DNA of 64,000 bases from an uncultured Chloroflexia bacterium (GCA_963713975.1 OY970218.1:1177683-1241682); one strand, 5' to 3'. Shown: positions 15,183-40,975, numbered from the stretch's first letter. The notes: generated by a model from the sequence alone, not told the origin. Numbers and translations: made by a program.

Positions 15183-15740
15183 TCAGGGCGCGCGCCGGTA
15201 GTGCATGGCGACCGCGCCGCAGCGAAGCGGCTTCGCGGAGACCAGCTCGAGCCGGCGCGTGCTCGCCAGCCCGCTCTGATACAGGGTCGGGCCGTGACCA
15301 GCGACCCTCGGGTGGACGAGGAATTTGTACTCGTCGATCAGATCCAGCCGGTCCAGCTCGGTCGCCAGCTTGCCGCTACCGAGGAGCACGCCGCCCGGGG
15401 TCTCGTCCTTGAGCTGCTGCACGCCCGTGCGCAGGTCGCCCGCGATGTGGTGGCTGTTGCTCCACGGGAAGTCCGTTCGCGTCGACGACACCACGTACTT
15501 CGGCTTGGCATCCAGCTTGACCGCCCACTCGCGCATCGCCGGCGGCGCCTCCTCGTCGCCCCGGGCGACCGCCGGCCAGTAGCTCTCCATCATCTCGTAG
15601 GTGACGCGGCCCCAGAGGATCGCCCCGCCCTCGTCCATGAGGCGAGTGAAGTAGGCGTGTGTCTCGTCGTCGGCGATCCCCTCCTGGTGGTCGACGCAGC
15701 CGTCCAGGGTGACGTTGATGCTGAAGGTCAGGAGTCCCAT
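15183..15740 (-). CDS. Dihydrofolate reductase family protein (RibD C-terminal domain-like)
   Basis: MGLLTFSINVTLDGCVDH...ILWGRVTYE...VLLGSGKL pattern of the YwjB/RibD_C family. Confidence 0.7.
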   Translation of the reverse strand: MGLLTFSINVTLDGCVDHQEGIADDETHAYFTRLMDEGGAILWGRVTYEMMESYWPAVARGDEEAPPAMREWAVKLDAKPKYVVSSTRTDFPWSNSHHIAGDLRTGVQQLKDETPGGVLLGSGKLATELDRLDLIDEYKFLVHPRVAGHGPTLYQSGLASTRRLELVSAKPLRCGAVAMHYRRAP

Positions 15741-17067: not shown

Positions 17068-18165
17068 CTACTCGCCAGCTGCCATGAGTTCAACAAGCTC
17101 CGGGACATGAAGGGGCAAGGCGCTCAATCGCTCGGACGGCGCATACCAGCGCCCTCGCGTGGCGCCGCGCGGCTCGAGCCAGCCAGCCCTCGAGAGGCGG
17201 CCGAGTTCAGCCCGAGCGGCTGGCAGCGAGCGGCCGGTGAGCCCGGCGAGCGCTGCGGTGCGCAGCCGACCGACACGGGCGGCGAGAAGCGTCGGGGCCC
17301 ACTCGAACGGCTCGCCTGCGTCGGCGAGCACCGAGACCAAGAGCCCGATGTCGGTCGGGAGCCGGCCCAGGAGCCGATTCCGAGCTTCGAGTCGATCCAG
17401 CGTGATCCTGGTGTAGTAGTCGAGCCATTCGGTGACCGGATGTTGATCAGCGTCGTAGGTTGGTCCGAGCGTCGTGCGCAAGGCGTCGATGTACTCGTCT
17501 CGGTTCCGGCGAAGGTACGCCTCGATGCTGATCAGCTCCGGCGAGTGAATGCCGTCTCGGACGAGCTCCATCGCGGCGAGGATCCGCGCCGTCCGGCCAT
17601 TGCCGTCGTTGAACGGATGGACGGCGATGATGTTGAGATGGAGTAGCGCCGAGCGAACAAGCGGCGGAGTTTGGTCCGCGAGCCTGAGCCAACCGATCAG
17701 CTCGTTCATCAGGTCCCGGACTACGAGCGGGCTCGGTCCTGTGAAGATCCCCACGAAGACGTCTTCGCCCGGACCCCGGTAGTCGCCGCGGGTGTCTTGC
17801 GGGAGCCCTTCCATGACGGTCGCATTGATCAGCTGGATCACCTCATGCGACCAGGCGAACCCCGGACGGGCCGCGGCGTCGCTGGCAAGGTTGAGCGCCC
17901 GGTTGTAGTTCTCTACCTCGCGGATGTGACCGGCGTCGGCGTCGACCGCTGCGCCGGCCAGGATCTCCTCAACCTGATTCGGCGAAAGAGGATTGCCCTC
18001 GATGCCTGTGCTTCCTGAGATCGCCGCATCTCGGGCCGCTGGCCACATGGCGAGCATTCGCCAGTTTCCAGGGCCAAGCTCCACATCGCGACGGGCAGCG
18101 TCTTCCCACCGGTCGAGCCGTTCCCGAATGGTCATGGTGGGCGTGTACGTGAGGTGGAGAGTCAT
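17068..18165 (-). CDS. Fic family protein (AMPylase/filamentation induced by cAMP), full length
   Basis: Canonical Fic motif HPFNDGNGRTARI. ~366 aa counted from the ATG at 18165 (MTLHLTYTPTMTIRERL...). The ORF extends to 18474, but that upstream part is low-complexity. Confidence 0.8.
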   Translation of the reverse strand: MTLHLTYTPTMTIRERLDRWEDAARRDVELGPGNWRMLAMWPAARDAAISGSTGIEGNPLSPNQVEEILAGAAVDADAGHIREVENYNRALNLASDAAARPGFAWSHEVIQLINATVMEGLPQDTRGDYRGPGEDVFVGIFTGPSPLVVRDLMNELIGWLRLADQTPPLVRSALLHLNIIAVHPFNDGNGRTARILAAMELVRDGIHSPELISIEAYLRRNRDEYIDALRTTLGPTYDADQHPVTEWLDYYTRITLDRLEARNRLLGRLPTDIGLLVSVLADAGEPFEWAPTLLAARVGRLRTAALAGLTGRSLPAARAELGRLSRAGWLEPRGATRGRWYAPSERLSALPLHVPELVELMAAGE

Positions 18166-18233
18166 TCGCTTGGCGCACGAGCGGTTACCGTCGAGAGGAT
18201 GATAGAAGCAATTCGCTCGTCGCGCAAGCGGTT

Positions 18234-18300
18234 TCTTGGCGCGCCCACAGGTGTCGGGCGCGCGGCCACCATGCGTTTCGTCAAGGTCCCGATCGCGCCC
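18234..18300 (+). repeat. Diverged copy (D) of the serine-recombinase 3'-end repeat family
   Basis: TTGGCGCGCCCACAGGTGTCGGGCGCGCGG...CCCGATCGCGCCCC. Encodes ...APTGVGRAATMRF..., homologous to the ARPTGVGRAISTYTIPI tails at 19094, 20872 and 28656. Confidence 0.5.
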
Positions 18301-18310
18301 CGAGGCCTGT

Positions 18311-18919
18311 ATGGGCGCGCTCGAACTGTTCCTGCACGCTCCGGATCCGGGCGTGCCCGAGCTTGTGCGCGCCGCTATCGTCCACGTCCAGTTCGAGACG
18401 ATCCACCCGTTCCTCGATGGGAACGGACGTGTCGGGCGGCTCCTGATCCCGGTCATGCTCGCGCACGCTGGCATCCTGCGGCAGCCGCTGCTCTATCTGA
18501 GCCTGTTCTTCCGCGAGCACCGGGACGAGTACTACCGGCTCCTCGGGCAGGTCAGGACCGACGGTGACTGGGAGGCCTGGGTTGACTTCTTCCTCGAGGG
18601 CGTGGAGCAGACCGCGGGTGGTGCCGTTGCGACGGCGAACCGGTTGCTGGAGCTGATGCGCAGGGATCAGGTCAGGGTCGCGGGCCTGCAGCGGTCGGCT
18701 GGCGCGGCGTCCCGTGTGTTCTCGGTTCTCTGCGAGCGGCCGATCGCGTCGGTGGGCGATGCGGCCTCGCGTCTCGGCGTCTCCCTGCCGACTGCGACGC
18801 GCGGCATCGGGGCCCTCGCGGGCCTCGGCATTGTCAGCGAGATCACCGGGCGTCAGCGCAGCCGCCTCTACGCGTACGACGAGTACCTCTCGATCCTGAC
18901 GCGGGAGCCGGCGGCCTGA
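18311..18919 (+). pseudogene. 5'-truncated Fic family gene (Fic core + C-terminal wHTH only)
   Basis: HPFLDGNGRVGRL motif and C-terminal winged HTH. It lacks the ~130-150 N-terminal residues seen in the full-length neighbour. The truncation point abuts repeat D. Confidence 0.6.
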
Positions 18920-19093
18920 GTGCGGCCAGGCCCGCGAGCGACTCTCTCCCGCGGCCGGACACGGACATTGTCGCGACAACTGCACGCAACTCGCTTGATC
19001 CGAGTGAGCCTCTGGGGCACGCTCTGGGCACCAGGTCCAGCGGATCGGATGGCTCGACCACCCCGGCCGCCAAGAGGGCGGCTGGTGCGGCTC

Positions 19094-19200
19094 TTTGGCG
19101 CGCCCGACAGGTGTTGGACGCGCGATTTCAACCTACACCATCCCGATCTGGGGCCGCGACGAGTGGCTCGCCGCGGCGGGCCTGAGTGCGTGCGGCCAGG
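19094..19200 (+). repeat. Direct repeat A: recombinase-tail repeat (56 nt identical to 20872-20927, then ~85% similar)
   Basis: TTTGGCGCGCCCGACAGGTGTTGGACGCGCGATTTCAACCTACACCATCCCGATC, then a diverged continuation. Encodes ARPTGVGRAISTYTIPIWGRDEWLAAAGLSA. Confidence 0.7.
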
Positions 19201-19395
19201 ACCCGGAGCTAACGAAGTCAGCCCATGCATCCTCCTGCCGCTCCCGGGCGCGATCCTTCGCGCTCCTGGGGCTCGAGGCCTCGGCCTTCTGGCGGGGCGT
19301 GACGTGAGGACGGTTAAGGCATGAACGCAGCGGACCCGACTCTGCGTTTCTGCGCGTGCTTCGCGCTCCTGCGAGTCGCGTATGCTCTGACCCCC

Positions 19396-20373
19396 ATGGC
19401 CGACTTCGTCACTTCTCTTCCCAAGGCCGAGCTGCACATTCACGTCGAGGGGACGCTCGAACCCGAGGTGATGTTCGCCCTTGCGGATCGCAACGGGATC
19501 ACGCTTCCCTTTGCCACGGTCGAGGCGGTGCGGGCCGCCTACGAGTTCACCGACCTGCAGTCGTTTCTCGACCTGGTCTACCAGGGCGCTGCGGTGTTGC
19601 ACACCGTCGAGGATTACGACGGCCTGATGTGGGCGTACCTGCAGCGGGCGCACGCCGATGGAGTGCGTCGCGCCGAGATCTTCTTCGACCCCCAGGTCCA
19701 CACCGAGCGGGGCATCGGGTTTGAGGTATTCATGAATGGCTTCGCCCGAGCAAGGCAACGCGCCGCGGCCGAGCTCGGGATGACCACGGCTCTGATCATG
19801 TGCTTTCTCCGTCACCTCCCTGAGTCGGCGGCGCTGCGCACGCTCGAGGCCGCAGGGCCGTACCTCGATCAGATCGTTGCGGTGGGCCTGGACTCGTCAG
19901 AGGTCGGACATCCACCCTCCAAGTTCGAGCGCGTGTTTGCCCGGGCGCGGGAAGCGGGGTTGCGGGCGGTGGCGCACGCCGGGGAAGAGGCGCCACCGCA
20001 GTACGTGTGGGAGGCGCTCGACCTACTAGGGGCGGAGCGCATCGACCACGGTGTCCGTGCCGAGAGCGACGCGGCACTGGTGTCCCGGCTGGCTGCCGAC
20101 CGCATCCCGTTGACGATGTGCCCGCTCTCCAACGTGCGGCTGCGGGTCATCGATCGGATCCAGGACCACAACCTCAAACGGCTGCTCGATCGCGGGGTGG
20201 TGGTGACGGTCAACTCCGACGACCCTGCGTATTTCGGCGGCTACATCGGGGACAACTACCGGGCGGCCCAGGCCGCTCTCGGGTTGAGCGACGCCGAGAT
20301 TCGAACCCTCGCCCGGAACTCGATCGGGGCGAGCTTCGCCGACTCAGCGGAGAAGGCGCGCCTGCTGGCGTAA
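19396..20373 (+). CDS. add: Adenosine deaminase
   Basis: LPKAELHIHVEG, SLGY-like core, HAGE and TVNSDDPAYFG motifs of the adenosine/AMP deaminase family. The ORF starts at 19321; the ATG at 19396 gives the typical N-terminus. Confidence 0.85.
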   Translation: MADFVTSLPKAELHIHVEGTLEPEVMFALADRNGITLPFATVEAVRAAYEFTDLQSFLDLVYQGAAVLHTVEDYDGLMWAYLQRAHADGVRRAEIFFDPQVHTERGIGFEVFMNGFARARQRAAAELGMTTALIMCFLRHLPESAALRTLEAAGPYLDQIVAVGLDSSEVGHPPSKFERVFARAREAGLRAVAHAGEEAPPQYVWEALDLLGAERIDHGVRAESDAALVSRLAADRIPLTMCPLSNVRLRVIDRIQDHNLKRLLDRGVVVTVNSDDPAYFGGYIGDNYRAAQAALGLSDAEIRTLARNSIGASFADSAEKARLLA

Positions 20374-20399
20374 CTGCCGCTCGCGTTCGTCTGAAGCTC

Positions 20400-20961
20400 T
20401 CTGGCTGGCGGTGACGTGATCTAACGACCTCACGCAGGTCGAGGGAATCGAGCTCGACGACGCGACCATCGGCGCCGTCGTCGCCAGCCTCGGGTCCGGT
20501 CCCCGGCCGGTGGCGATCGACCAGGCGCGGATCGATCGCCAGATCCGCGAGCTCGCCCTGGAGCACGCCGCGGCCGCCTCCAGGACGCCGTCTACCTCGA
20601 GCGGCTCCACGAGCTCCGGGGGGCCAGGGAGAACTTCGAGCGAACGAGCGCCGACGGGATCTCGCCCGAGCGGGCCGTGGCCCGGCTGCGCGAATTGTCA
20701 GCGACGTGGCGCGCAGCCGAGGTTCCTGCGGAGAAGGCCGACCTGCTCCACGCCATCTACGACCGAATCACCGTCGCAGGGAGGAGGAACGTGTCCGTCA
20801 GGCTCACTCCGTCGGCACACACCCACGGAATCGCGCTGGCTCTGCCGGAAAAAGGTCGCAATTTGGCGCGCCCGACAGGTGTTGGACGCGCGATTTCAAC
20901 CTACACCATCCCGATCGACGGCCGCGATGAGTGGCTGGCAGCGGCAGGGCTGCGGGCATGA
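20400..20961 (+). pseudogene. 3' remnant of a large serine recombinase gene (C-terminal coiled-coil/tail region), frameshifted; includes direct repeat B
   Basis: Joined frames give ...IDQARIDRQIRELALEHAAAA / QDAVYLERLHELRGARENF...LSATWRAAEVPAEKADLLHAIYDRITVAGRRNVSVRLTP...ARPTGVGRAISTYTIPIDGRDEWLAAAGLRA*. This matches the C-terminal tail pattern of actinobacterial large serine recombinases. No catalytic or recombinase domain lies upstream. Confidence 0.6.
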
Positions 20962-21260
20962 GGGACGGCTACCAGCGCGGCGAGCTGACGCGAACTCGAA
21001 CCGCCCGTCAGGTGGAGGTGCTCGCCGCATTCGTGGCGGCCGGAGGCTCCGTGCTGGCGGCAGCACAGGTGGTCGGGATTCGGCCGAGTACCGCCAAGCG
21101 ACACCTCGCCGACCTGCGTGCCCGGTCGGGCCTCACGACCCAGCAGCTGATCTACAGCGGTCGAGCTGAGGGCTGGCTCGTTGTTCCCAGCCTGGAGCCG
21201 ACATGTGGGACGGGGCGGTGGCCAGCCGGGCCGGTGCTCCATTCGCTGTCGGACGTCTGA
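20958..21260 (+). CDS. Small GerE/LuxR-type HTH protein
   Basis: TARQVEVLAAFVAAGGSVLAAAQVVGIRPSTAKRHLADLRARSGL resembles a sigma-70 region 4/GerE HTH. Confidence 0.5.
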   Translation: MRDGYQRGELTRTRTARQVEVLAAFVAAGGSVLAAAQVVGIRPSTAKRHLADLRARSGLTTQQLIYSGRAEGWLVVPSLEPTCGTGRWPAGPVLHSLSDV

Positions 21261-21323
21261 ACACGGTCATGGGTCACCGGAGTGGCCAGAGCCCTACGGG
21301 CTGTCTGACCTTCCCCAAGATCC

Positions 21324-21731
21324 CTACCCGGCAGAGGTGGTCGCGATGTAGCCGACGAGTAGCGCGGCCACGATCGTGACTGAGGCCATGCCCCATCGCT
21401 CGAAAGGGTGCCGCCCGGTCAGGTTGGACACGGTGTTGAGCGCCAGGAAGCCGGCGACAACCCATGCCGCCCAAACCAGTGCCTGGCTGCCAAGGAAGAT
21501 CGGCGTGACGTGAGCCCGGCCGAGCACGATCCAGGCTGCGAGAACCAGGATGACCGCGCTGCCCAAGGCGATCGCACGGTACGGCGGCTGCAGGACACCG
21601 TCGACCGTCGCCGCGCGGCCGCCCATCGTGGCTTCACCAAGTGGCAGCCCGGCCGCGAGCGCCACCTGGAAAGCGGCAACACCTGCCATCAGCACTGCCG
21701 CGGCAACCGCCGCAAGCTCGACGGGGGTCAT
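21324..21731 (-). CDS. Small integral membrane protein
   Basis: 4 predicted TM helices from the ATG at 21731 (MTPVELAAVAAAVLMAGVAAF...). The upstream ORF extension is Arg-rich and non-protein-like. Confidence 0.5.
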   Translation of the reverse strand: MTPVELAAVAAAVLMAGVAAFQVALAAGLPLGEATMGGRAATVDGVLQPPYRAIALGSAVILVLAAWIVLGRAHVTPIFLGSQALVWAAWVVAGFLALNTVSNLTGRHPFERWGMASVTIVAALLVGYIATTSAG

Positions 21732-22234
21732 CGATCTATCCAGACGATCGTGAGTGCGACGGCCGTGACGAGGAGACCGACGCCGTAGACGGTGTGGGTC
21801 GCGAGGTTCCGAAGCCGCGCCGCGCGGGGATCCGGTGTCTTCGACCCTGCGATGCCGGCGCCCATCCCGGGCTGAAGGATGAACCAGGGAGCGACGATCG
21901 TGCCCAGGCCGATCAGCATCGGGGGCAGGATGGTTGGAGAACGAGCCCAATCAAGCCCCCAGACCGCAAGGAGCAGGAACGCGAACGCGATGCCGATCGA
22001 GTAGTGGGCCACCCAGCCGAGCGGCCGTTCCCCGCGGATCGGTTCGGCGGACGCGATGCGTTCGTGGAAGAAGCGCCGCCGCGGGAAGTGGCCGATCCAC
22101 CGCCCCAACATGGCGTAGTCGAGGCCTCGGATGTCGAATGCGCGACGCGCGAACAGCGCCCAGGCATCCATCAAGACGGCAGCTCCGACACCGATGAGCA
22201 CACCCCGCGCGAGAAACTCCACAGCGTCAATCAT
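21728..22234 (-). CDS. DUF2938-like membrane protein
   Basis: Hydrophobic 4-TM protein (MIDAVEFLARGVLIGVGAAVLMDAWALF...) with ATGA overlap to its neighbour. Confidence 0.5.
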   Translation of the reverse strand: MIDAVEFLARGVLIGVGAAVLMDAWALFARRAFDIRGLDYAMLGRWIGHFPRRRFFHERIASAEPIRGERPLGWVAHYSIGIAFAFLLLAVWGLDWARSPTILPPMLIGLGTIVAPWFILQPGMGAGIAGSKTPDPRAARLRNLATHTVYGVGLLVTAVALTIVWIDR

Positions 22235-22333
22235 CGGAGCACTCGGTGACCCGGTATATCGCTCTGCGGAGCCCCCAGAGGATGCGGAGGACATGGCGTG
22301 GGACCGGCCGCTCCTCCGGAGCCCCTTCGATGG

Positions 22334-23083
22334 TCACGCGGCACCTGCCTTGGCCGCGAGCCCGACCGGCGCCGGCCCGGACGGCTGAGCCCGACCTGGC
22401 TCTTCCGAGAGCGCGATCGGGGAGTTCTCGTTGAAACCCTTGAACGTCAGCCAGAGACCGAGCACCAGTTCCCAGATGAAGAACGGCAGGACCGCGACGA
22501 CGTGGAACGGGGTCCCGGGTGCAGTCAGGCCGAGCATCATGGCGATGACCCAGGTGATGAGGATCGGCGCGCCGATGAGGCCGAGGGCCGGGATCGCGCG
22601 AGGGACCAGCCGCGCCCGGTAGAGTGCCGTGCCGAGCATGAGCGCGTTGAACGCTGCCATGTTCCCGCCGATGACCATGGCCCACGTCCGGATGTCGATG
22701 AGGGCGAGTGCGGCGGGCTGGAAGGACGCGGCGTCGGCCGCGGTCGCGGCTTGCTGGTGCAGCGAGGTGACGGCAAGCAGGCCGAGAACGCCCACGGTGA
22801 TCATCGCGCCCTCGAACAACCGGGTTGACAGGTAGCCGATCGCCAGGCCCTCGTGGGCCTTCTTGATGACCGAGAACAGGGCGACTCCGCAGCCAATGAG
22901 TGCGAACACGTTGACGAGCTCGAAGATGGCTCCGAGGGCGACCTGCTGGTCCGCCCCGGGGCCGGTGATGTAGTTGGGATCGCTGATGGCCGGGCCGACG
23001 AGGGCCGCTGCCCCAATCGATCCGAGGAACGTCACCAAGTAGAGGATCCCGCCGACTAGCGCGGTCTTTCGATACGAGGTCAT
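22334..23083 (-). CDS. DUF4386-like polytopic membrane protein
   Basis: 249 aa with ~6 TM helices; MTSYRKTALVGGILYLVTFLGSIG... Confidence 0.55.
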   Translation of the reverse strand: MTSYRKTALVGGILYLVTFLGSIGAAALVGPAISDPNYITGPGADQQVALGAIFELVNVFALIGCGVALFSVIKKAHEGLAIGYLSTRLFEGAMITVGVLGLLAVTSLHQQAATAADAASFQPAALALIDIRTWAMVIGGNMAAFNALMLGTALYRARLVPRAIPALGLIGAPILITWVIAMMLGLTAPGTPFHVVAVLPFFIWELVLGLWLTFKGFNENSPIALSEEPGRAQPSGPAPVGLAAKAGAA

Positions 23084-23177
23084 TGATAGTTCCCTTCGTG
23101 TCTGTGGTCTCCGGCGGCGTCAGCGCGCCGCCGGAGAGGTCGCGACTCCACCCCGGGGTTCGGTCGCGTTGGGAGGA

Positions 23178-23864
23178 TCAGTCGACCGCGACGGGCTCGA
23201 GCCTTGAAGTCACGGGACTCACCGCGGGCACGAGGCTTGAGGCGCGCTGCGCACGCCAGAGGGAGTAGCCGAGGCCGACCAAGGCGAGGCCGGTCGGGAT
23301 AGCAAACAGCCGCTCATATTGCGGAACGATGCCGGCACCGATGGCTGACAGGGTGCCCACGGCGAGGAGCGCTGACGCCCAGCGGGCGAGGACGTTGGCA
23401 CGGAAGAGGGCGACCGCGAAGAGGACGCCGCCGGCGATGTAGGTGAGTCCAGTGAACATGATCGCGACCTGCATCGATCCGATGTCGCCGGTCGTCGGGC
23501 GGTTGTTTGCGATCGAAATGACGTCGTTCACCCAGCCCGTCGAGGTGTCAGCGATGGACGGGAGCACGAGCGCGGCCACGTACTGGGTCCCCAGCATGCT
23601 CAGGTAACCGGCAGCGAAAACGACGTAGCCGATCAGGCCCAGGACGCCGATCCTGGTCACCTGGAACAAGTAGACACCGGTGATCCCGGCAAGCGCGAGA
23701 GCGGCCATGAGCAGCTTCAGCGAGTTTCGGACGATCACGTCGGTCGTGGTGATCGAGGTGGAGTCAAGGTATGGGTGGCCGATCTGGACGCCGATGAAGA
23801 TGAGTCCAGCGGCGGCTGCGGCAACGGAGGCCGCCCGGAGCAGGAATCCGTGGGTGATGGTCAT
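23178..23864 (-). CDS. Polytopic membrane protein (paralogous in topology to 22334-23083)
   Basis: ~6 TM helices counted from MTITHGFLLRAASVAAAAAGLIFIG... Confidence 0.5.
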   Translation of the reverse strand: MTITHGFLLRAASVAAAAAGLIFIGVQIGHPYLDSTSITTTDVIVRNSLKLLMAALALAGITGVYLFQVTRIGVLGLIGYVVFAAGYLSMLGTQYVAALVLPSIADTSTGWVNDVISIANNRPTTGDIGSMQVAIMFTGLTYIAGGVLFAVALFRANVLARWASALLAVGTLSAIGAGIVPQYERLFAIPTGLALVGLGYSLWRAQRASSLVPAVSPVTSRLEPVAVD

Positions 23865-23960
23865 TTCATTCTCCTGGGAAGTGATGGGTGAGCACCGGAT
23901 CTCGGCGCGATGACTTGGGTTGGGCAAGCTCATTCCTGTCGCAGATTCACGCTCCGGCCA

Positions 23961-24179
23961 TCAATCGCCCCCTTCCAGCGTTGGGATCGACGTGAGGGCG
24001 ATGACCTCGGAACCGCGCAACGCTTCCAGGAAAGGCTGGAAGCTGCCACTCACCAAGCAGGTCAGCCGGCGGCCGTTGACCTTGACTTCGCTGACCCCCG
24101 AAGCGCGCTTCAGTTGCCGCGCGGGTGGGGTGCCGACGAAGGTCACGTGAACTCGCTGCTGGAGTCGCGGTTGCGTCAT
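23961..24179 (-). pseudogene. Possible C-terminal remnant of an ABC-transporter ATPase
   Basis: Translation ends ...VTFVG...VKVNGRRLTCLVSGSFQPFLEALRGSEVIALTSIPTLEGGD, resembling the C-terminal PTLEDVF tail of DrrA-like ATPases. No upstream ATPase core is present. Confidence 0.3.
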
Positions 24180-24272
24180 GCCCCGAGACTGACCACCCGT
24201 CGGGCCGCGCATATCGTCTGAATTGATGATTGGCGGTCGGTTGACCTGCTCGTCGCGTACCCTGCATGGATC

Positions 24273-26573
24273 GTGGCAAGGCCCAGGCGCCGATCCGGCA
24301 ACCTTCCAGCCGAGGCGACCAGCTTTGTTGGGCGTCGGCGTGAGCTCGCCGAGATTCGCAAGAAGCTGACGACCGCCCGAGTCATTAGCCTCGTAGGCCC
24401 CGGAGGCGTCGGCAAGACGCGGCTGGCGATCCGCGCGGCAGACAGCCTGGGGCGTGGGTTCGCGGACGGTCCCTGGCTGGTCGAGCTTGCCGACCTGCAC
24501 GATCCGGCCCTCGTGACCAACGCCGTGGTCGCCGCGCTGGACCTGCGAGATCAGACTGCAGCGGAGCCGCTCGACGTCCTCGCCACGTATCTCCAGGACA
24601 AGCAGGTGCTGCTTGTCGTCGACAACTGTGAACACCTTCTCGACGCGACCGCGCAGCTTGTGGCCCTCATCGTCCGAACGTCGACGAACGTGCGGGTGCT
24701 CACGACCAGCCGTGAGCCGCTCCAGATTTCGGGCGAGTACGTGGTTCCTGTGCCCCCGCTGGAGCTACCAGAACCCACGACGACGGCGTCGCTCGCAGAG
24801 CTGCGCCAGAACGAAGCGGTGATGCTCTTCACGGAGCGCGCTGCGGCGGCATCCGGGACGTTCGAGTTGACCGAGGCCAATCGCGCGGCGGTCGTCCAGT
24901 TGTGCCGCCGTCTGGACGGTCTGCCCCTGGCGATCGAGCTCGCGGCGGTGAGAACGAGAGCCCTGACGGTCGAGGAGATCGTCGCTCGCTTGACCGACCG
25001 ATTTGCGCTGCTCACCGGCGGGCGACGGGAAGCGCTGCCGCGGCACCAAACCCTGCAAGCCACGATCGACTGGAGTCACGATCTCCTGCCGCCCGAGGAG
25101 CAAACCCTGCTGCGGCGCCTCTGTATCTTCGGTGGGTCGTTCACCGCCGAAGACGCGGGGTCGGTGTGCTCGTTCGACGAGCGATCCACCGCGGGGACCG
25201 CGGACATGCTGGCCTCGCTGATGGAGAAGTCGTTGATCGTCCGAGAGGACTTCGCGCAGCGTGCCGGCTATCGCCTGCACGAGACGATGCGTGAATACGC
25301 GCGTGTCAAGCTGCAAGAGGCCGATGAGTCGGACCTCGTCGAGGAACGGTGCCTCGAGCATTACCGAACCAGGTGCCTTGGGTCGGCGGATCAAGCTCGA
25401 TATGAGCTTCTCGAGTGGCTCGAGTGGGTCGACCTGGAGATCGACAATCTCCGGGCGGTGCTGCAACGCTGCATCGCGCGCGGCGACCTCGCCCATGGGT
25501 TGGATATCGCTGCCTCGCTCGGATACTTCTGGATCACTCGCGGGACCACGGAAAGTGTGCGCTGGCTCGACCAACTCCTGCCAGCCGGCGATGCGTCTCC
25601 GGAGACGGAAGTGCGGGCGTGTCTCGTGCGCGGGCGGCTGAGCCTCCTGCGGGCCGAGTCGGCCGATGCTCGGCGCTGGCTGGCTCGCGCGGTGACAATT
25701 GCTCGCCGTGCTGGGCTCCGGTCTGAACTCGCCCAATCGCTGTCTCTCGCTGCCATGGCCGCGAACGCCGGCGGCGACGCAGCCGCCGCCGGCCGCCTCA
25801 TCGACGAGGCGGCAACAGTGACGAAGGAGCTCGACGACTACCAGGCCACGATCGAGCTGTTGCAGGCTCAGGCCGTCCATGCGGTCTTTTCGGGGGCTAT
25901 GCAGGAAGCCAAGGACTTCGCCACCGAAGGTGTGCGCTTGAGCCAAGCGGCTGGTGACGTCTACTACCTCGAATCTTTCCGGCGCAACCTCGCGAGTGTC
26001 GCGATGTTCGCCGGCGACCTCGACACTGCAAAGGTGCAGACGGTCCTCGCGTTACGCCTGGCCCGGGACCCGGACAACCGAGTCGCCATGTATTACGGGT
26101 TGTCGGCTCTGGGATGGCATGCGGCCAACTCTCGACAGCCGCGACTTGGGGCACGGCTACTGGGTGCGGCCGCGGCGATCGGCATCGGTGCCGGCGCCGA
26201 CATCAGCGGGCCGTTCGAGCCATTTCTGCGTCAGGCCACGGAGTCGGCTATCTCGGTGCTGGGGAAGGCCAAGTTCGACGCCGAGTTCGGCGCTGGTAGA
26301 AGCATGAGCCGTGAGACGGCGTTGCGGCTGGCGCTCGGCGAATCCGCCGACGTCGCGGTCGATGGGACAGACGACATCGAGAGCGGACCGTTGGCGAAGC
26401 GGGAGGTCGAGGTCGCGCGCTTGATCGCGCAAGGCATGAGCAACAAGGAGATCGGAGCTCGGCTGTTCATCTCGCAGCCGACCGTGGCGACCCATGTTCG
26501 GAACATTATGAACAAGCTCGGGTACAACTCGAGGGCACAGATCGCCGGCTGGGTCGCGTCGGGAAGTCGGTAA
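24273..26573 (+). CDS. Large ATPase-LuxR family transcriptional regulator (AAA/NB domain + TPR-like + GerE HTH)
   Basis: Walker A LVGPGGVGKTRLA. Long helical repeat region. C-terminal REVEVARLIAQGMSNKEIGARLFISQPTVATHVRNIMNKLG. Confidence 0.85.
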   Translation: MARPRRRSGNLPAEATSFVGRRRELAEIRKKLTTARVISLVGPGGVGKTRLAIRAADSLGRGFADGPWLVELADLHDPALVTNAVVAALDLRDQTAAEPLDVLATYLQDKQVLLVVDNCEHLLDATAQLVALIVRTSTNVRVLTTSREPLQISGEYVVPVPPLELPEPTTTASLAELRQNEAVMLFTERAAAASGTFELTEANRAAVVQLCRRLDGLPLAIELAAVRTRALTVEEIVARLTDRFALLTGGRREALPRHQTLQATIDWSHDLLPPEEQTLLRRLCIFGGSFTAEDAGSVCSFDERSTAGTADMLASLMEKSLIVREDFAQRAGYRLHETMREYARVKLQEADESDLVEERCLEHYRTRCLGSADQARYELLEWLEWVDLEIDNLRAVLQRCIARGDLAHGLDIAASLGYFWITRGTTESVRWLDQLLPAGDASPETEVRACLVRGRLSLLRAESADARRWLARAVTIARRAGLRSELAQSLSLAAMAANAGGDAAAAGRLIDEAATVTKELDDYQATIELLQAQAVHAVFSGAMQEAKDFATEGVRLSQAAGDVYYLESFRRNLASVAMFAGDLDTAKVQTVLALRLARDPDNRVAMYYGLSALGWHAANSRQPRLGARLLGAAAAIGIGAGADISGPFEPFLRQATESAISVLGKAKFDAEFGAGRSMSRETALRLALGESADVAVDGTDDIESGPLAKREVEVARLIAQGMSNKEIGARLFISQPTVATHVRNIMNKLGYNSRAQIAGWVASGSR

Positions 26574-26606
26574 GCTGCCAAGCAGGCGTGGTCGTGCACC
26601 GTGCCC

Positions 26607-27878
26607 TCAGCGGACACCCTTCACGGGCAGGATGGCGAACGCGCCGATGATCGCGCAGAGCCCGGCGGCTGCATAGAGCACACCGTAGCTGCCGCTGCCG
26701 ATGGCCAGGATTGCGGGCGCGATCGCTGGTGCGATGGCGAACGGGACCGCGCTCGCCATGTTGAACACGCCGAGATCCTTGGCGACATCGTCGTTGTCCG
26801 GCAGCACGTCGAGCACAAGCGCGAGGTCCACAGCGAAGTACATGCCGAAGCCGAGGCCGCTGATGGCCATGCCGACCAGGAAACCGTTGAAGTCGCTGGC
26901 GACGGCGATCACGAACAGCGCGATGCCGTACACGACTGACGCGGCGAAGACGAAGATCTTTCGCCGGCCGGTCCGGTCAGTGAGCTTGCCGCCGATGAGG
27001 GAAGCGGCGATGAGGAACACGGACTGGGTTAGCGTGCCGAGGAAGATCTGTTGGGGCACGTCGGCCTCGGCGCTGCCGATCTTGTCGAGCAGGTAGTAGG
27101 CCAGGTACGTGACCAGGAAGGCATAGGCCAGAACGAATAGGAAGCGACTGATGAACGCCCAGGCGAAGTCCGGGCTCTTCCGCGGATCGACGTAGAACGA
27201 CCTGGTGAATTCCCGGAGCGACCAGTCTGGCCTGTCCTCTCTGGCAAGCCGGCGATCGTTCAGCGTCACGGCAAAGAGCAGGATGAAGAACCCGCCGATC
27301 GCACTCGGGACCAGGAGCATCGCGAGTTCGTTACCCGTGAAGAGTCCTACCAGAAATGTGCCGCTGACCGCCGCTATCGGCAGACAGACGCCGACGAGAC
27401 CGGAGACCATGCCGCGTTGAACGGTCGGGACTTGATCCGGGATCACCGCGACCTGGGCAGCGAGGAGTGCATTGAAGGACAGCTGGGCGAGGCACCACCC
27501 GACGAGGACGACCGGGATGGTCGGTGCCAGCCCGACGATGAGGATGCCGATGGAACCGCCCGCCAAGCCGAGGAACAGCCACGGCCGCCGCATGCCCAGC
27601 CGCGACGTTGTGCGGTCGCTCATCCTGCCGAAGAATGGATTGGCGAAGATGGCCAAGAGTGCGCCGACGCCGGCGACAAGCGCCAGGCTGTTCGGCGCCT
27701 GGTCGATCCCCACGAGCGAGTTCACCTTCAATGGCAAGGTCACGAGCAGCGGCGCCAGGAACACGAGGTTCGTTCCGATGAACGCTAGCGTGTACAGCGA
27801 GATGAAAACCCAGCCAACCCGGTGTGCCGCCGGCGACGCTGGCGCGAGCGCGACCTCGGCTGCGGTTCGGTACGGCAT
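26607..27878 (-). CDS. MFS transporter
   Basis: 12 TM helices, GRMSDRTTSRLGMRRPW (MFS motif A-like) and a second GKLTDRTGRRK repeat. Start uncertain: 27878 or upstream, with the ORF reaching 28037. Confidence 0.75.
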   Translation of the reverse strand: MPYRTAAEVALAPASPAAHRVGWVFISLYTLAFIGTNLVFLAPLLVTLPLKVNSLVGIDQAPNSLALVAGVGALLAIFANPFFGRMSDRTTSRLGMRRPWLFLGLAGGSIGILIVGLAPTIPVVLVGWCLAQLSFNALLAAQVAVIPDQVPTVQRGMVSGLVGVCLPIAAVSGTFLVGLFTGNELAMLLVPSAIGGFFILLFAVTLNDRRLAREDRPDWSLREFTRSFYVDPRKSPDFAWAFISRFLFVLAYAFLVTYLAYYLLDKIGSAEADVPQQIFLGTLTQSVFLIAASLIGGKLTDRTGRRKIFVFAASVVYGIALFVIAVASDFNGFLVGMAISGLGFGMYFAVDLALVLDVLPDNDDVAKDLGVFNMASAVPFAIAPAIAPAILAIGSGSYGVLYAAAGLCAIIGAFAILPVKGVR

Positions 27879-28161
27879 CGCGTCCAGCCCGGCGGTGGGA
27901 GGCACATGGGGCTGGCTTGGCCCGCTTGGGAGCGGACCGGAAGGCTTCGGCATTGCGCTCCCTTCAGGGGTCGGCGGATACGCAGTGTGACAGCAAGGCG
28001 GTCCGTGACCGGGCGCAGTCGTCCTCGGGCTCATCACCCGCAGCCAAGTGAGCCCGGTGTGAGGGACGGGTCGCGTAAGCCGAGCTGACGGCGCGTCGTC
28101 GCTGGGCTCTCAAGTCCGCCTGCGAGCAGCCGGCGCAGATTTCTGGCCCGATCCATTCCTA

Positions 28162-28620
28162 TTGCCCCGCATATGGCGCATCATCGAACGCCCCTGCGGA
28201 GCAGCCGAACTGACAACGCTGGACAACGCACCCCCGCTGATCGAGACGAAGTTCTACGTCCCCAGGCGCCGAGGCGTGGTCGCACGTCCGAGACTGCACG
28301 AGCGTCTGTCCCGCGGGGTCGAGTCGAAGCTGTCGTTGGTCTCCGCCCCGGCAGGCTTCGGCAAGACGACGCTCCTAGCCGAATGGCTCGCCTCCGCTCC
28401 GAGCGGCCGAAGGTCGGTGGCGTGGCTCTCGCTCGACCCAGGCGACAACGAGCCCACCTCCTTCTGGGCTTACGTGATCGCGGCGCTGCAGGTGGCGGCG
28501 CCGGGGGTCGGCGCGAATTCTCTCCCGCTGCTGCGGGACCCGCCAAGGGCTACTGGCGCAACCTACGACGAGACCCCGGCCGATGGCCGGGGTCTCCAGC
28601 GACTGACTGACTCACATGTC
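28162..28620 (+). pseudogene. N-terminal fragment of a MalT/LuxR-type ATPase regulator, truncated
   Basis: ...ETKFYVPRRRGVVARPRL...LSLVSAPAGFGKTTLLAEWL...WLSLDPGDNEP..FWAYVIAAL is the canonical N-terminus of large LuxR-family regulators. The coding signal ends at ~28600, where repeats begin. Confidence 0.65.
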
Positions 28621-28655
28621 CCGACTCATGTGACTCATATGTCGCGACTCATGAC
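28607..28655 (+). repeat. Degenerate short tandem repeats GACTCA(C/T)(AT)ATGTC x4
   Basis: GACTCACATGTC-CC-GACTCATGT-GACTCATATGTC-GC-GACTCATGACATGG, immediately 5' of recombinase-tail copy C. Seen directly in the sequence. Confidence 0.6.
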
Positions 28656-28763
28656 ATGGCGCGCCCGACAGGAGTCAAACCGCCGGGTACCCACTCTGGA
28701 TTCAAGTCGATCCCGATCGCGGGCGCGCACGATTGGGAGGTCGGAACAATGCGCAGCGCGTAG
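28656..28763 (+). repeat. Copy C of the recombinase-tail repeat (encodes MARPTGVKPPGTHSGFKSIPIAGAHDWEVGTMRSA*)
   Basis: Starts GGCGCGCCCGACAGG and ends CCCGATCGCGGGCGCGC, like copies D, A and B. The reading frame and stop are conserved with the A/B tails. Confidence 0.55.
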
Positions 28764-28883
28764 CCGTGTTCGAGCGCTGGTCGACACCTGGACTGAAAGC
28801 TGCTGAAGCGGGACGCGTGCCATTGACAATTCGCCCAGCGAGTTCCCTGGGAGCGCGGCGCCCACAGGTTGGCGTGAACGCCC

Positions 28884-40973: not shown

Positions 40974-40975
40974 CC

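What the first reader, a model, noticed from the sequence alone, without database searches (positions are those of the whole stretch)
18234..20961. Four decayed copies of a large-serine-recombinase gene 3' end; two are near-identical direct repeats flanking adenosine deaminase
Segments at 18234 (D), 19094 (A), 20872 (B) and 28656 (C) all begin GGCGCGCCC(G)ACAGG and end CCCGATC(GCG). In the same reading frame they encode the same protein tail (ARPTGVGRAISTYTIPI[W/D]GRDEWLAAAGL..A*, and MARPTGVKPPGTHSGFKSIPIAGAHDWEVGTMRSA* for C). Only copy B is preceded by ~170 codons of a frameshifted serine-recombinase C-terminal region. A and B are 56/56 identical, then ~85% identical for ~50 nt. They bracket a 1.77-kb unit containing only add. 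D sits at the 5'-truncation point of a Fic gene, and C at the 3'-truncation point of a LuxR-type regulator. These look like scars of repeated site-specific recombination events that each duplicated the recombinase-gene tail. Possible mechanisms are tandem accretion or decay of integrative elements whose att site overlaps the recombinase 3' end, or cassette capture.
Basis: seen in the sequence. Interest (0 to 1): 0.7.

Follow-up and report, generated by a model that had tools for sequence, protein, structure and literature searches.

The report
Prophage attachment-site scars at tRNA-Arg
The four repeats are leftover attachment-site junctions from temperate phages that used a large serine integrase to insert, one after another, into a tRNA-Arg gene; they are inert scars here, but they reveal an unusual integrase whose attachment site lies inside its own gene.

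Summary
A profile built only from tails in other genomes finds exactly four copies in the window: B (E=1e-22), A (2e-20), C (5e-11) and D (4e-7).

The shared start motif TGGCGCGCCCGACAGG is the reverse complement of the 3' end of tRNA-Arg(CCG). In related Chloroflexota (Ca. Limnocylindrales) genomes, a ~500-aa large serine recombinase (LSR) reads straight into that tRNA; this is attR. I also found the other three site types:
- the free-phage attP form (LSR + tail + small HTH gene) on a 41.7-kb viral contig with terminase genes;
- 30 unoccupied attB sites;
- attL junctions (native tRNA flank + tail).

attP is a ~52-bp palindrome centred on GG, inside the last ~30 codons of the LSR gene. Integration therefore swaps the C-terminal 26 residues for 15 tRNA-encoded ones. 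The distal tail is under purifying selection as a peptide.

In the window:
- D is an old attL.
- B is an internal junction (truncated, frameshifted LSR + tail).
- A is an inherited junction whose left flank is unexplained.
- C abuts the last ~120 bp of an IS481-family element that inserts into the att core.

There is no intact LSR and no tRNA in the window. Tandem accretion and decay is supported. Cassette capture and an excisable A-add-B unit are not.

The parts
18238..18292 (+). Copy D: att core (1-nt deletion) plus the first ~40-80 nt of a tail of a third subtype. It is an attL-type junction: the left boundary of the prophage-remnant array.
   Evidence: nhmmer E=4.2e-7, with the alignment running to 18318. 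Closest to the tail of L083, which sits behind the canonical attB flank. L016 has the orthologous Fic(-) gene, then 170 nt, the canonical flank caaatagaacaagtgttct, the core and a tail; the match to the window ends exactly at 18234.
18296..18919 (+). Fic' : a 5'-truncated Fic-family gene lacking about 140 N-terminal codons, lying between D and A.
   Evidence: PF02661 match to profile positions 38-93 only. Full-length homologs are about 350 aa. The ortholog in L121 (82.7% identity over 906 nt) is preceded by a core plus the left end of the IS481-family element.
18920..19093 (+). Spacer forming the left flank of copy A. Its origin is unresolved.
   Evidence: No similarity to the LSR 3' end or to the canonical attB flank. 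It is conserved next to the core and tail in L121 (131/188 identity), so the junction is inherited.
19094..19213 (+). Copy A: att core (19097-19111) plus a full tail whose stop codon is mutated (TGA to TGC). An isolated tail with no LSR to its left.
   Evidence: Aligns with the L003 tails through 19213. The HTH gene that normally follows is missing.
19212..19307 (+). 3' fragment of a small membrane (holin-like) phage gene, fused in frame behind tail A.
   Evidence: 82-88% identical to segments in L048, L056, L071, L074, L017, L003, L076 and L002. In the five loci displayed (L048, L056, L071, L074, L017) it reads into the start of the next ORF; ORFs were called in L048, L056 and L071. The L007 counterpart was typed as an endolysin (Amidase_2+LysM, phrog_833).
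19396..20373 (+). add (adenosine deaminase): an intact gene occupying the place of the endolysin and the rest of the phage genome.
   Evidence: PF00962, E=1.6e-97. No homolog in any related locus by tblastn.
20429..20864 (+). Pseudogene fragment of the large serine recombinase (residues ~336-480). It lacks the catalytic, recombinase and Zn-ribbon parts and has one frameshift between 20551 and 20578.
   Evidence: tblastn with full-length LSRs gives two HSPs in different frames. 298 homologs. 66-87% nucleotide identity to LSR 3' regions in about 60 loci.
20862..20961 (+). Copy B: att core (20865-20879) plus an intact 31-codon tail ending at the stop codon 20959-20961. Contiguous with the LSR fragment, it is an attP-like internal junction of a tandem array.
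   Evidence: This is the same junction type as 34 LSR|tail junctions in related genomes.
20958..21260 (+). Small LuxR/GerE-type HTH gene whose ATG overlaps the tail's stop codon (ATGA). It is the first gene of the phage after attP.
   Evidence: 48 tblastn hits across about 35 loci, many of them directly behind a tail. The L007 ortholog matches PF00196 (E=2.9e-6) and phrog_3282. Present behind the tail in the viral contig (L118:869-1192).
28229..28545 (+). N-terminal fragment of a STAND/MalT-like LuxR regulator, inverted relative to its orientation in related loci.
   Evidence: AAA_16/AAA_22 weak matches. 76-78% identical to L001:16239-15923, L021, L030 and L051, on the opposite strand relative to the LSR there.
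28539..28656 (+). Right-end remnant (end of the transposase ORF plus the terminal inverted repeat) of an IS481-family insertion sequence that had inserted into the att core.
   Evidence: 79% identical to positions 1189-1314 of the 1315-bp element L044:10783-12097. That element has rve, rve_3, HTH_32 and LZ_Tnp_IS481 domains and scores 257 bits on NCBIfam IS481 (cut-off 224). It has a 15-bp target duplication of the core in L044 and L048.
28657..28763 (+). Copy C: att core (28658-28672) plus a complete tail of the 'C type' (MARPTGVKPPGTHSGFKSIPIAGAHDWEVGTMRSA*), whose P' arm still resembles the tRNA T-loop.
   Evidence: nhmmer E=5e-11. 88% identical to L053:10775-10892, which is an LSR|C-type tail junction. 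The same tail type is seen in P0085, L031, L085 and L089.
17068..18136 (-). Intact Fic-family gene flanking the array on the side away from the tRNA.
   Evidence: PF02661, E=4.6e-16. A 50%-identical ortholog sits in the same position relative to attL in L016.

Best explanation
The four repeats are junction scars left by temperate phages of Chloroflexota (Ca. [quoted passage not shown]

**The phage attP.** It is a ~52-bp near-palindrome, AGGTTGaaaTGGCGCGCCCGACA-GG-TGTcGGGCGCGCgatagCAACCT, lying inside the last ~30 codons of the LSR gene.
- The left arm (P) carries a copy of the last 14-16 nt of the tRNA, so the tRNA is rebuilt on integration.
- The right arm (P') and the sequence after it encode the conserved C-terminal tail ...GVGRAxxTYxIPIEGRDEWLAAARRLA*.
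- The tail's stop codon overlaps the start of a small HTH gene.

**What integration does.** Recombination with attB (native flank aaataGAACAnGnGTTC + tRNA) gives two products:
- attR: the LSR, now ending ...ARPTG-FEPATFGSGGRRSIH*, reading into the tRNA.
- attL: flank + core + tail + HTH, at the far end of the prophage.

**How arrays form.** Later phages integrate again at the tRNA-proximal junction. This pushes older prophages away from the tRNA and creates internal 'LSR + tail' junctions. The older units then decay by deletion, IS481 insertion into the core, and rearrangement.

**In the window:**
- D is the old attL.
- B is an internal junction.
- A is an inherited junction that has lost its LSR side.
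- C is a junction into which an IS481-family element inserted.
- No copy is active here: there is no intact LSR and no tRNA in the 64 kb.

**Shown versus inferred.**
- Shown: the identity of the core with the tRNA 3' end; the four att configurations; the palindrome; the phage nature of the element; the polarity of arrays; peptide-level selection on the tail.
- Inferred: that the LSR is the catalyst; that crossover is at the central GG; that arrays grow by re-integration at attR.
For: **The core is a tRNA end.** The core is the reverse complement of the 3' end of tRNA-Arg(CCG) (ARAGORN; sequence).

**Junction census in species-representative genomes.**
- 42 LSR|tRNA, 34 LSR|tail, 14 other|tail.
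- Many ~497-codon ORFs read straight into the tRNA.
- Full-length proteins have PF00239 Resolvase (E=1e-10 to 1e-12) and match phrog_95 integrase at 6e-40.

**attP symmetry.** LSR|tail junctions average 16.2/25 symmetric positions (up to 20/25), against 9.7/25 for tRNA junctions. The centre GG coincides with the right edge of the attP/attB identity block.

**A prediction that held.** The flank recurring at isolated tails should be the native attB flank. A metagenome scan found 33 contigs. Thirty have the flank plus an intact tRNA-Arg and no LSR (attB). Three have the flank plus a tail (attL).

**Free-phage form.**
- IMGVR_UViG_3300037086_000245 is a 41.7-kb viral contig.
- The LSR N-terminus is at one end; the LSR C-terminus + tail + HTH is at the other.
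- It carries terminase small (1e-31) and large (5e-82) subunits, primase, helicase and HNH.
- A second viral contig shows LSR|tRNA-Arg.

**Polarity of arrays.** Intact LSRs occur at 19/38 tRNA junctions against 4/28 internal junctions (Fisher p=0.004). All 14 tails lie on the LSR side of the tRNA in the same orientation.

**Selection on the tail.** Entropy at codon positions 1/2/3 is 0.33/0.28/0.80 in the distal tail and 0.47/0.11/0.44 in the P' arm.

**Window-specific evidence.**
- Orthology of D with the attL of L016.
- IS481 remnant at C.
- L121 as the ortholog of junction A.
Against: - No recombination was observed directly; everything is comparative.
- The window has no tRNA, no tRNA remnant and no intact LSR, so the tRNA-proximal end of this array is unseen.
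- Nothing from 28776 to 64000 matches any related locus.
- The left flank of A is neither an LSR end nor the canonical attB flank, and simple accretion does not explain it.
- A phage-derived segment at 1439-2222 lies to the left of D, the proposed array boundary, so the region has been rearranged more than the simple model allows.
- The Recombinase-domain match is below Pfam's cut-off (19.2 vs 21.1 bits). There is no sequence match to solved structures. The fold match to serine-integrase complexes is weak (E=0.012, TM 0.15).
- Only 20 of the 41.7 kb of the viral contig was inspected, so a second integrase there is not excluded.
Confidence: 0.85

Rival explanations
1. A and B, and perhaps the others, arose inside this genome by local duplication, unequal crossing-over or gene conversion of a single tail, rather than from separate integrations.
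For: - A and B are 55/55 identical at their 5' ends but only 74% identical afterwards.
- A's ortholog in L121 carries a different P'-arm allele (28/37), whereas A and B match 37/37. This is compatible with conversion of A by B after the lineages split.
Against: - The same P'-arm allele is 36/37 identical in unrelated genomes (L046, L035), so perfect identity is expected from constraint on attP.
- The flanks of A and B share nothing.
- D and C belong to two other tail subtypes, each with its own relatives elsewhere.
- Junction A, with its flank, pre-dates the split from L121.
Confidence: 0.12
2. The unit A-add-B is a mobile gene cassette (integron-like capture, or a cis-mobilisable element) that a recombinase supplied in trans can excise and reinsert.
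For: A 1768-bp unit with an intact metabolic gene is bracketed by direct repeats that contain a recombinase site.
Against: - A is X|P' and B is P|P', so they are not the attL/attR pair a serine integrase plus directionality factor would recombine.
- add has no homolog in about 120 related loci.
- The unit also contains a holin-gene fragment and a frameshifted LSR fragment, which marks it as a gutted prophage.
- B's P arm carries a 3-nt insertion (EKGRNL in place of EKVEM), which puts its outer half-site out of register.
Confidence: 0.03
3. The repeats are displaced tRNA 3' fragments left by classical tyrosine-integrase islands, and the serine recombinase is only a neighbour.
For: tRNA 3' ends are the classical targets of tyrosine integrases. 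Use of tRNA genes by serine integrases is rare: 14/297 predicted cases, none verified (PMC7192596).
Against: - The att site lies inside the LSR ORF in 76 junctions.
- attP is a two-fold symmetric ~52-bp site around a dinucleotide, with no arm-type repeats noticed.
- No tyrosine integrase domain was found in the complete 8.7-kb L007 unit.
- Only 16 nt of the tail is tRNA-derived in the A/B type.
Confidence: 0.04
4. The repeats are a REP/MITE-like intergenic repeat family with no coding meaning.
For: They are short, GC-rich, partly palindromic, and several lie between genes.
Against: - There are only four copies in 64 kb, all in one orientation.
- Third codon positions vary 2.5 times more than first and second positions in the distal tail.
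- The sequence is the C-terminus of full-length integrases and is present once in a phage genome.
Confidence: 0.01

Closest known systems
Phage-encoded large serine integrases (phiC31, Bxb1, A118/LI, TP901-1 type) and their attP/attB/attL/attR logic
   Same: - A ~500-aa protein with an N-terminal Resolvase catalytic domain, a match to the phage integrase family phrog_95, and Zn-ribbon-like Cys motifs with long helices after them.
- attP is a ~50-bp imperfect palindrome around a central dinucleotide.
- The hybrid attL and attR sites are stable.
- It is carried by a ~42-kb temperate phage with terminase genes.
   Different: - The target is a tRNA gene, which the literature describes as not previously reported or verified for serine integrases (PMC7192596).
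- attP and attB share a 16-bp block because the tRNA end must be rebuilt.
- attP lies inside the integrase ORF, so the protein's last 26 residues change on integration.
- The family is very divergent: no sequence hit in the PDB, and only weak sub-threshold matches to CcrA/CcrB/XisF models.
Myxophage Mx8 IntP/IntX (tyrosine integrase with attP inside int)
   Same: attP lies within the integrase coding sequence, and integration creates a recombinant gene with a new 3' end. The prophage-encoded integrase is altered, not destroyed (PMC6070905).
   Different: Mx8 Int is a tyrosine recombinase. Here the enzyme is a serine recombinase, the swap affects only the last 26 residues, and the replacement residues are encoded by the antisense strand of a tRNA gene. 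No functional data exist here.
SSV-type 'suicidal' integrases of archaeal viruses and plasmids
   Same: The recombination site is inside the integrase ORF, and integrated elements are flanked by integrase-gene pieces that persist as pseudogene fragments (PMC7253208).
   Different: Those are tyrosine recombinases split into two inactive halves. Here the ORF stays open and nearly full length after integration (19 of 38 tRNA junctions have intact ORFs).
Tandem arrays of integrative elements at one tRNA gene (accretion; Islander/TIGER 'tandems')
   Same: Integration restores the core at both ends. Further elements integrate beside the first, giving same-orientation arrays that then decay and recombine (PMC7192596). 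The window and at least nine related loci (L001, L003, L007, L030, L042, L052, L057, L061, L075) show such arrays.
   Different: Described arrays are overwhelmingly made by tyrosine integrases. Here the internal junctions re-create a complete integrase C-terminus, because the P' arm is coding.
IS481-family insertion sequences
   Same: The element at L044:10783-12097 passes the curated NCBIfam IS481 threshold (257 vs 224 bits). It has terminal inverted repeats and a 15-bp target duplication.
   Different: It is found repeatedly at one specific target, the centre of the att core: L044, L048, L072, L121 and window C. The window keeps only its last ~120 bp.

Membership tests
Large serine recombinase (serine integrase) | N-terminal Resolvase-type catalytic domain with the catalytic serine | tested here: met
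   Met in full-length relatives (L007, L023, L043): PF00239, E=1.8e-10 to 2.8e-12, above the cut-off; motif WIRESTAGQ. The window copy lacks this part, since it retains only residues ~336 to the end.
Large serine recombinase (serine integrase) | C-terminal recombinase domain, zinc ribbon and coiled-coil | tested here: inconclusive
   - PF07508 scores 19.2 bits, below the 21.1 cut-off, in one of three proteins.
- phrog_95 'integrase' matches over residues 10-457 at 5.9e-40.
- A CxC...PC motif is visible.
- The AlphaFold model shows long helices at residues 115-242 with pLDDT 80-97.
- Foldseek's top hits are serine-integrase complexes, but at E=0.012 and TM 0.15.
Large serine recombinase (serine integrase) | attP of about 50 bp made of two inverted half-sites around a central dinucleotide | tested here: met
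   34 LSR|tail junctions average 16.2/25 symmetric positions, up to 20/25, centred on GG. tRNA junctions average 9.7/25.
Large serine recombinase (serine integrase) | Existence of attB, attP and both hybrid products, with arms exchanged at one point | tested here: met
   attR in 42 loci and attL in at least 9; attB in 30 metagenome contigs; attP in a viral contig and in L023.
Large serine recombinase (serine integrase) | Catalysis of attP x attB recombination with a 2-bp staggered cut | not testable with these tools
   Needs an in vitro or in vivo recombination assay. GG as the crossover is inferred only from the palindrome centre and the edge of the identity block.
tRNA-targeted prophage or genomic island in a tandem array | Intact tRNA regenerated at one end and a displaced tRNA 3' fragment at the other, in the same orientation | tested here: met
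   Met in relatives: 14 of 14 tails are on the LSR side of the tRNA in the same orientation. In the window only the displaced fragments are present; there is no tRNA and no tRNA remnant.
Temperate phage | Packaging, replication and lysis genes linked to the integrase | tested here: met
   In the viral contig: terminase small 1.3e-31, terminase large 4.8e-82, primase 4e-110, helicase, HNH. In L007: holin and endolysin. No capsid or tail genes were examined, because only 20 of 41.7 kb was held. The window itself has only fragments.
IS481-family insertion sequence (flank of copy C) | IS481 transposase above the curated threshold, terminal inverted repeats, target-site duplication | tested here: met
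   NF033577 scores 257 bits against a cut-off of 224. Inverted repeats and a 15-bp duplication are seen in L044 and L048. The window retains only positions ~1189-1314 of 1315.
tRNA gene or tRNA pseudogene | Cloverleaf detectable by ARAGORN or Rfam | tested here: not met
   No tRNA in the window. No Rfam match at the gathering threshold or at E<=10 over 17500-29500. Only 16 nt (24 nt in C-type tails elsewhere) match the tRNA.
Integron-like gene cassette | attC-type recombination sites bracketing promoterless genes, next to a tyrosine IntI integrase | tested here: not met
   The bracketing sites are LSR att junctions of unequal type. No IntI-like protein appeared among the roughly 50 window ORFs scanned. 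add does not recur in related arrays.
REP/MITE intergenic repeat | Many copies in both orientations, with no coding constraint | tested here: not met
   Four copies in one orientation. The codon-position pattern shows purifying selection.

The most novel reading that the evidence does not exclude
The in-ORF attP works as an integration-dependent isoform switch for a serine integrase.
- The free phage makes an LSR with a structured, selected C-terminal tail (a beta-strand plus an amphipathic helix, IPIEGRDEWLAAA), translationally coupled to a small HTH protein.
- The prophage makes an LSR whose tail is replaced by 15 residues encoded antisense to tRNA-Arg, and which is uncoupled from the HTH gene.
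- The two isoforms would differ in integration versus excision competence or in regulation, as reported for Mx8 IntP/IntX.
- The tail + HTH module left at attL might be expressed from the host flank, which carries a GAAC-N4-GTTC palindrome and an in-frame GTG.
Probability: 0.25. Interest if true: 0.7.

Novelty: new variant of a known kind. Interest (0 to 1): 0.5.

Why it matters
For this window, the finding explains a puzzling set of repeats as ordinary genome archaeology. They mark a decayed prophage array, so the Fic fragment, add, the small HTH gene and the truncated regulator should be read as island cargo and debris, not as a functional cassette system.

More broadly, it defines by comparison alone a complete attB/attP/attL/attR set for a divergent serine integrase that targets a tRNA gene. 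A large survey called that combination previously unreported and in need of proof (PMC7192596).

Serine integrases with known short att sites are useful genome-engineering tools. This one comes with a predicted 52-bp attP and a tRNA-embedded attB.

The family also places attP inside the integrase ORF, with a peptide-level-selected tail that is exchanged on integration. That is a testable route to studying how C-terminal elements influence serine-integrase directionality. It also gives a first look at temperate phages and their accretion dynamics in Limnocylindria, a lineage represented here only by uncultured MAGs.

Tried and rejected
**Tests that came back negative or uninformative**
- A tRNA gene or pseudogene at the repeats: ARAGORN and Rfam, both gathering and permissive, found nothing.
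- Pfam on the window's recombinase fragment found nothing. The assignment had to come from homologs and from full-length relatives.
- The first homology search returned only proteins of 110-310 aa. That briefly suggested a stand-alone domesticated C-terminal protein. I rejected this once the species genomes showed ~500-aa ORFs with the Resolvase domain.
- A sequence search of the PDB found nothing, and the fold search was only weakly indicative.
- No remnant of the tRNA body was found in the window.
- No add homolog was found in any locus (one search used the wrong frame and was repeated).

**Readings I took and then rejected**
- I first read the left flank of C as the native chromosome flank of the tRNA, because it matched L048 and L044. 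Those loci turned out to contain an IS481-family element inserted in the core.
- I tested whether the left flank of A is a decayed LSR 3' end; local alignment gives only background scores. I then tested whether it is a native tRNA-Arg flank of another lineage. The closest Fic contexts gave an ortholog of the junction itself (L121) and an unrelated tRNA-Glu context (L120), but no empty site. The flank remains unexplained.
- A possible fifth partial tail at 18909-18939 scores 34 against 18-23 for controls. The profile search does not support it.
- I tested whether B plus its HTH gene is the ortholog of L121's tail plus HTH, which would fit re-integration at junction A. The HTH genes are of different types, so this is not supported.

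Full report
**1. Checking the observation**

The four segments are there, all on the + strand.
- The exact 15-mer GGCGCGCCCGACAGG occurs at 19097 (A), 20865 (B) and 28658 (C). None is expected in 100 dinucleotide-preserving shuffles. D at 18238 carries it with a 1-nt deletion.
- A and B form a 102-nt direct repeat 1768 nt apart. They are identical for the first 55 nt and 35/47 identical afterwards.
- In one frame all four encode related peptides.
- A nucleotide profile built only from 58 tails of other genomes finds exactly these four places in 64 kb: B 1e-22, A 1.7e-20, C 5e-11, D 4.2e-7. The next hit has E=1.5.
- Only B is preceded by recombinase-like coding sequence: 20429-20864, in two frames, with one frameshift between 20551 and 20578.
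- Pfam confirms the neighbours: an intact Fic gene on the minus strand; a Fic fragment starting at profile position 38; add; a small HTH gene; a full STAND/LuxR regulator; and an N-terminal AAA fragment of another one.

**2. What the start motif is**

The motif looked like a reverse-complemented tRNA 3' end. ARAGORN and Rfam find no tRNA in the window.

The link came from relatives of the B-linked fragment. In locus L001 a decayed copy of the same protein reads ...KVAMARPTGFEPATFGSGGRRSIH*. ARAGORN places a tRNA-Arg(CCG) on the opposite strand exactly there. The tRNA ends ...CCTGTCGGGCGCGCCA, and its reverse complement TGGCGCGCCCGACAGG is the motif shared by every copy.

**3. Is it a serine recombinase?**

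- The fragment has 298 homologs, the best 120 all shorter than 310 aa and nearly all without Pfam hits. Their sequences nevertheless show the NPLYNGW motif, a Cys-rich stretch, long helices and the conserved tail.
- A scan of one genome per species returned 80 loci, nearly all from Chloroflexota/Chloroflexia or Ca. Limnocylindrales MAGs. In many, an uninterrupted ORF of ~497 codons precedes ARPTG.
- Three such proteins have the Resolvase catalytic domain (PF00239, E=1.8e-10 to 2.8e-12). The Recombinase domain is only sub-threshold.
- One matches the phage integrase family phrog_95 at 5.9e-40.
- An exhaustive search finds 1020 cluster representatives, including full-length ~500-520-aa proteins that match through the tail.
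- The family is divergent. There is no sequence hit in the PDB and only weak matches to CcrA/CcrB/XisF models. A model of the C-terminal 307 residues gives serine-integrase-DNA complexes as its top structural matches, but at weak scores.

I conclude that the family is a large serine recombinase. The window copy is a pseudogene retaining only residues ~336 to the end.

**4. The four att configurations**

Across loci L001-L082 and the window, the core is followed either by the tRNA body or by a tail. It is preceded either by the LSR 3' end or by something else. The counts are LSR|tRNA 42, LSR|tail 34, other|tail 14, other|tRNA 2.

*attP.* The LSR|tail junctions form a ~52-bp near-palindrome, AGGTTGaaaTGGCGCGCCCGACA-GG-TGTcGGGCGCGCgatagCAACCT. 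On average 16.2 of 25 positions are symmetric, and up to 20. tRNA junctions average 9.7. Two inverted half-sites around a central dinucleotide is the standard anatomy of a serine-integrase attP (established knowledge of the family). The centre GG is also where identity between tail junctions and tRNA junctions ends. That is what is expected if the phage only needs to copy the part of the tRNA between the crossover and the tRNA's 3' end.

*attB and attL.* Six isolated tails in different genomes share a left flank, aaATAGAACAnGnGTTCt. I predicted that this is the native sequence downstream of the tRNA, and scanned metagenomes for that flank fused to the core and the tRNA T-loop. Thirty-three contigs matched.
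- Thirty carry the complete tRNA-Arg and no LSR, so they are unoccupied attB sites.
- Three carry the flank plus a C-type tail, so they are attL.

*The free-phage form.* A 41,679-bp IMG/VR contig has LSR residues 1-77 at one end. At the other end, in the same orientation, it has residues ~214 to the end plus the full tail and the HTH gene. This is the signature of a circular or concatemeric genome broken inside the gene. It encodes terminase small and large subunits (1.3e-31 and 4.8e-82), a primase/polymerase (4e-110), helicases, an HNH endonuclease and a ParB-methyltransferase. A second viral contig shows LSR|tRNA-Arg. The elements are therefore temperate phages of about 42 kb. The small units in arrays, at most about 9 kb, are remnants. 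One of them (L007) still has holin and endolysin genes.

**5. How arrays form, and their polarity**

If each new phage integrates at the tRNA-proximal junction, two things follow. Older units should lie further from the tRNA and be more decayed. All tails should point the same way. Both hold.
- Intact LSR ORFs occur at 19 of 38 tRNA junctions but at 4 of 28 internal junctions (Fisher p=0.004).
- All 14 tails in loci that also hold the tRNA lie on the LSR side, in the same orientation. No core is found on the opposite strand.

Tandem arrays at one att site are a known phenomenon (PMC7192596). That re-integration uses attR, which shares the inner 14 nt of its left half-site with attB, is my inference.

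**6. The tail is a selected peptide**

Among 24 distinct intact tails, codons 14-31 (IPIEGRDEWLAAA...) have entropies of 0.33, 0.28 and 0.80 at codon positions 1, 2 and 3. This is the signature of purifying selection on the protein.

Codons 6-13, which are the P' half-site, show 0.47, 0.11 and 0.44, with no codon pattern. That fits constraint on the DNA site.

The structure model predicts an ordered tail. A strand at residues 287-290 is positioned to pair with residues 274-277, and a C-terminal helix spans 296-306 at pLDDT about 80-86.

Integration replaces these 26 residues by 15 residues encoded antisense to the tRNA. It also separates the LSR from the HTH gene, whose start overlaps the tail's stop codon (ATGA at 20958). 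Whether this changes enzyme behaviour is untested. The documented precedents for an attP inside the integrase gene are Mx8 (PMC6070905) and the SSV-type integrases (PMC7253208). Both are tyrosine recombinases.

**7. Reading the four window copies**

*D.* Locus L016 has a 50%-identical Fic gene in the same position. It is followed by 170 nt, the canonical attB flank, the core and a tail. The nucleotide match to the window ends at 18234, just before D. So D is the orthologous attL, with those 170 nt deleted. Its tail belongs to a third subtype, closest to L083, which is itself an attL with the canonical flank. D is cut off after about 55-80 nt by the 5'-truncated Fic' gene.

*A.* Contig L121 is orthologous to window 18301-19178 (82.7% over 906 nt). 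It has Fic', the same spacer, core and tail, there followed by an intact HTH gene. The junction is therefore inherited. In the window the HTH gene was later lost, and the tail's stop codon mutated from TGA to TGC. The tail now runs into the 3' end of a holin-like gene (19212-19307) and then add, which sits where the relatives have the endolysin. No related locus has add. The left flank of A is neither an LSR remnant nor the canonical flank. I could not explain it.

*B.* This is a standard internal junction: an LSR fragment plus an intact tail plus the HTH gene. The whole module is conserved in dozens of loci.

*A versus B.* Their shared P' arm (37/37) is also 36/37 identical in unrelated genomes, while A's ortholog in L121 has another allele (28/37). 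The perfect identity reflects a common constrained allele, possibly helped by gene conversion. It is not evidence of a recent duplication.

*C.* Its left flank (28539-28656) is the last ~120 bp of a 1315-bp IS481-family element (79% identity). That element has rve, HTH and LZ_Tnp_IS481 domains and scores 257 bits on NCBIfam IS481 against a cut-off of 224. In L044 and L048 it sits inside the att core with a 15-bp duplication of TGGCGCGCCCGACAG. Its ends also abut cores in L072 and L121. The regulator fragment to its left is inverted relative to related loci. Rearrangement linked to this IS, not the integrase, therefore made that breakpoint.

*Beyond C.* To the right lie a methylase, a HerA-type ATPase, a Type ISP restriction enzyme and Tad-pilus genes. 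None matches any related locus. The window contains no tRNA and no tRNA remnant, so the tRNA end of the array lies outside it or has been lost.

**8. Comparison with what is known, and novelty**

The window feature is a decayed prophage array, which is an ordinary kind of thing. The system it exposes differs from described serine integrases in three respects:
- It targets a tRNA gene. A large survey found 14/297 such predictions and stated that this use had not been reported and needed proof (PMC7192596). Tycheposons include a minority with a large serine recombinase (bioRxiv 10.1101/2020.12.28.424599).
- Its attP lies inside the integrase ORF.
- The exchanged tail is under peptide-level selection.

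I rate it a new variant of a known kind, of moderate interest.

**9. Limits**

- Nothing here shows catalysis.
- The crossover position, the use of attR for re-integration, and any functional meaning of the tail swap are inferences.
- The history of junction A is unexplained, and so is the presence of a phage-derived segment left of D (1439-2222).
- Only half of the viral contig was inspected.

Noticed in passing
L044:10783-12097, L048:4961-6277, L072:~15290-15321, L121:~600-735; window 28539-28656: One IS481-family insertion sequence is found repeatedly at a single target, the centre of the att core (after ...CCCGACAG). It shows a 15-bp target duplication in L044 and L048, and it occurs at both tRNA junctions and tail junctions. 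This suggests sequence-specific targeting of this palindrome or tRNA end.
   Followed up: partly
L083-L115 (positions); L016:~835-850; L057:2775-2793: A conserved aaATAGAACAnGnGTTC palindrome lies immediately 3' of tRNA-Arg(CCG), while the sequence further out differs between contigs. GAAC-N4-GTTC resembles, from my recollection, the LexA/Cheo box. It could equally be a small terminator hairpin or the outer part of attB. In many sites a GTG just before the core would start the tail ORF in frame at attL. The scan pattern forced GAACANGNGTTC, so only the 'aaata' extension and the six genome cases are independent observations.
   Followed up: no
window 1439-2222: A segment 82-88% identical to sequences in more than 15 LSR loci (L056, L061, L081, L046, L008, L017, L007 and others), often lying just upstream of the LSR gene and sometimes present twice per locus. 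It has no Pfam match on the 279-aa minus-strand ORF. It is probably another phage remnant, yet it lies to the left of the proposed array boundary D.
   Followed up: partly
window 7840-10635 and L053:13736-16535: A 2.8-kb block, 77% identical, that includes a HisKA_3 histidine kinase. In L053 it lies 3 kb to the right of an LSR|C-type-tail junction; in the window it lies 8-10 kb to the left of D. This hints at large-scale reshuffling of island content.
   Followed up: no
window 28884-42258: A defence-island-like stretch directly after copy C: DNA methylase (N6_N4_Mtase), an unknown 388-aa protein, a HerA/DUF87 ATPase, an HTH_17 protein and a 1063-aa Type ISP restriction-modification enzyme. No related locus shares any of it.
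   Followed up: partly
window 17068-18136 (-) and 18296-18919 (+): Two different Fic-family genes face away from each other across copy D: one intact, one 5'-truncated. Fic genes also appear as cargo in L007 and, near a tRNA-Glu, in L120.
   Followed up: partly
window 18909-18939 versus 19174-19209: A gapped match of about 31 nt between the end of Fic' and the end of tail A (score 34 against 18-23 for control pairs). It may be a fifth, vestigial tail end. The tail profile does not detect it.
   Followed up: partly
window 51654-52655 (-): A marginal tblastn hit (E=0.018, 31% over 75 aa) of the LSR recombinase-domain region to a 333-aa ORF with no Pfam match. This could be an unrelated recombinase-like remnant or simply chance.
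   Followed up: no
window 53463-54062 and 56944-60120: An ORF with two Phd/YefM antitoxin-like stretches, and a Tad/Flp-type pilus cluster (T2SSE ATPase, T2SSF). Both are unrelated to the finding.
   Followed up: no
window 28015-28071 and L048:3217-3277: A short match (84%) to the end of a small membrane-protein gene that precedes a tail-less HTH gene in L048. It is another isolated phage fragment, lying next to the MFS transporter gene.
   Followed up: no
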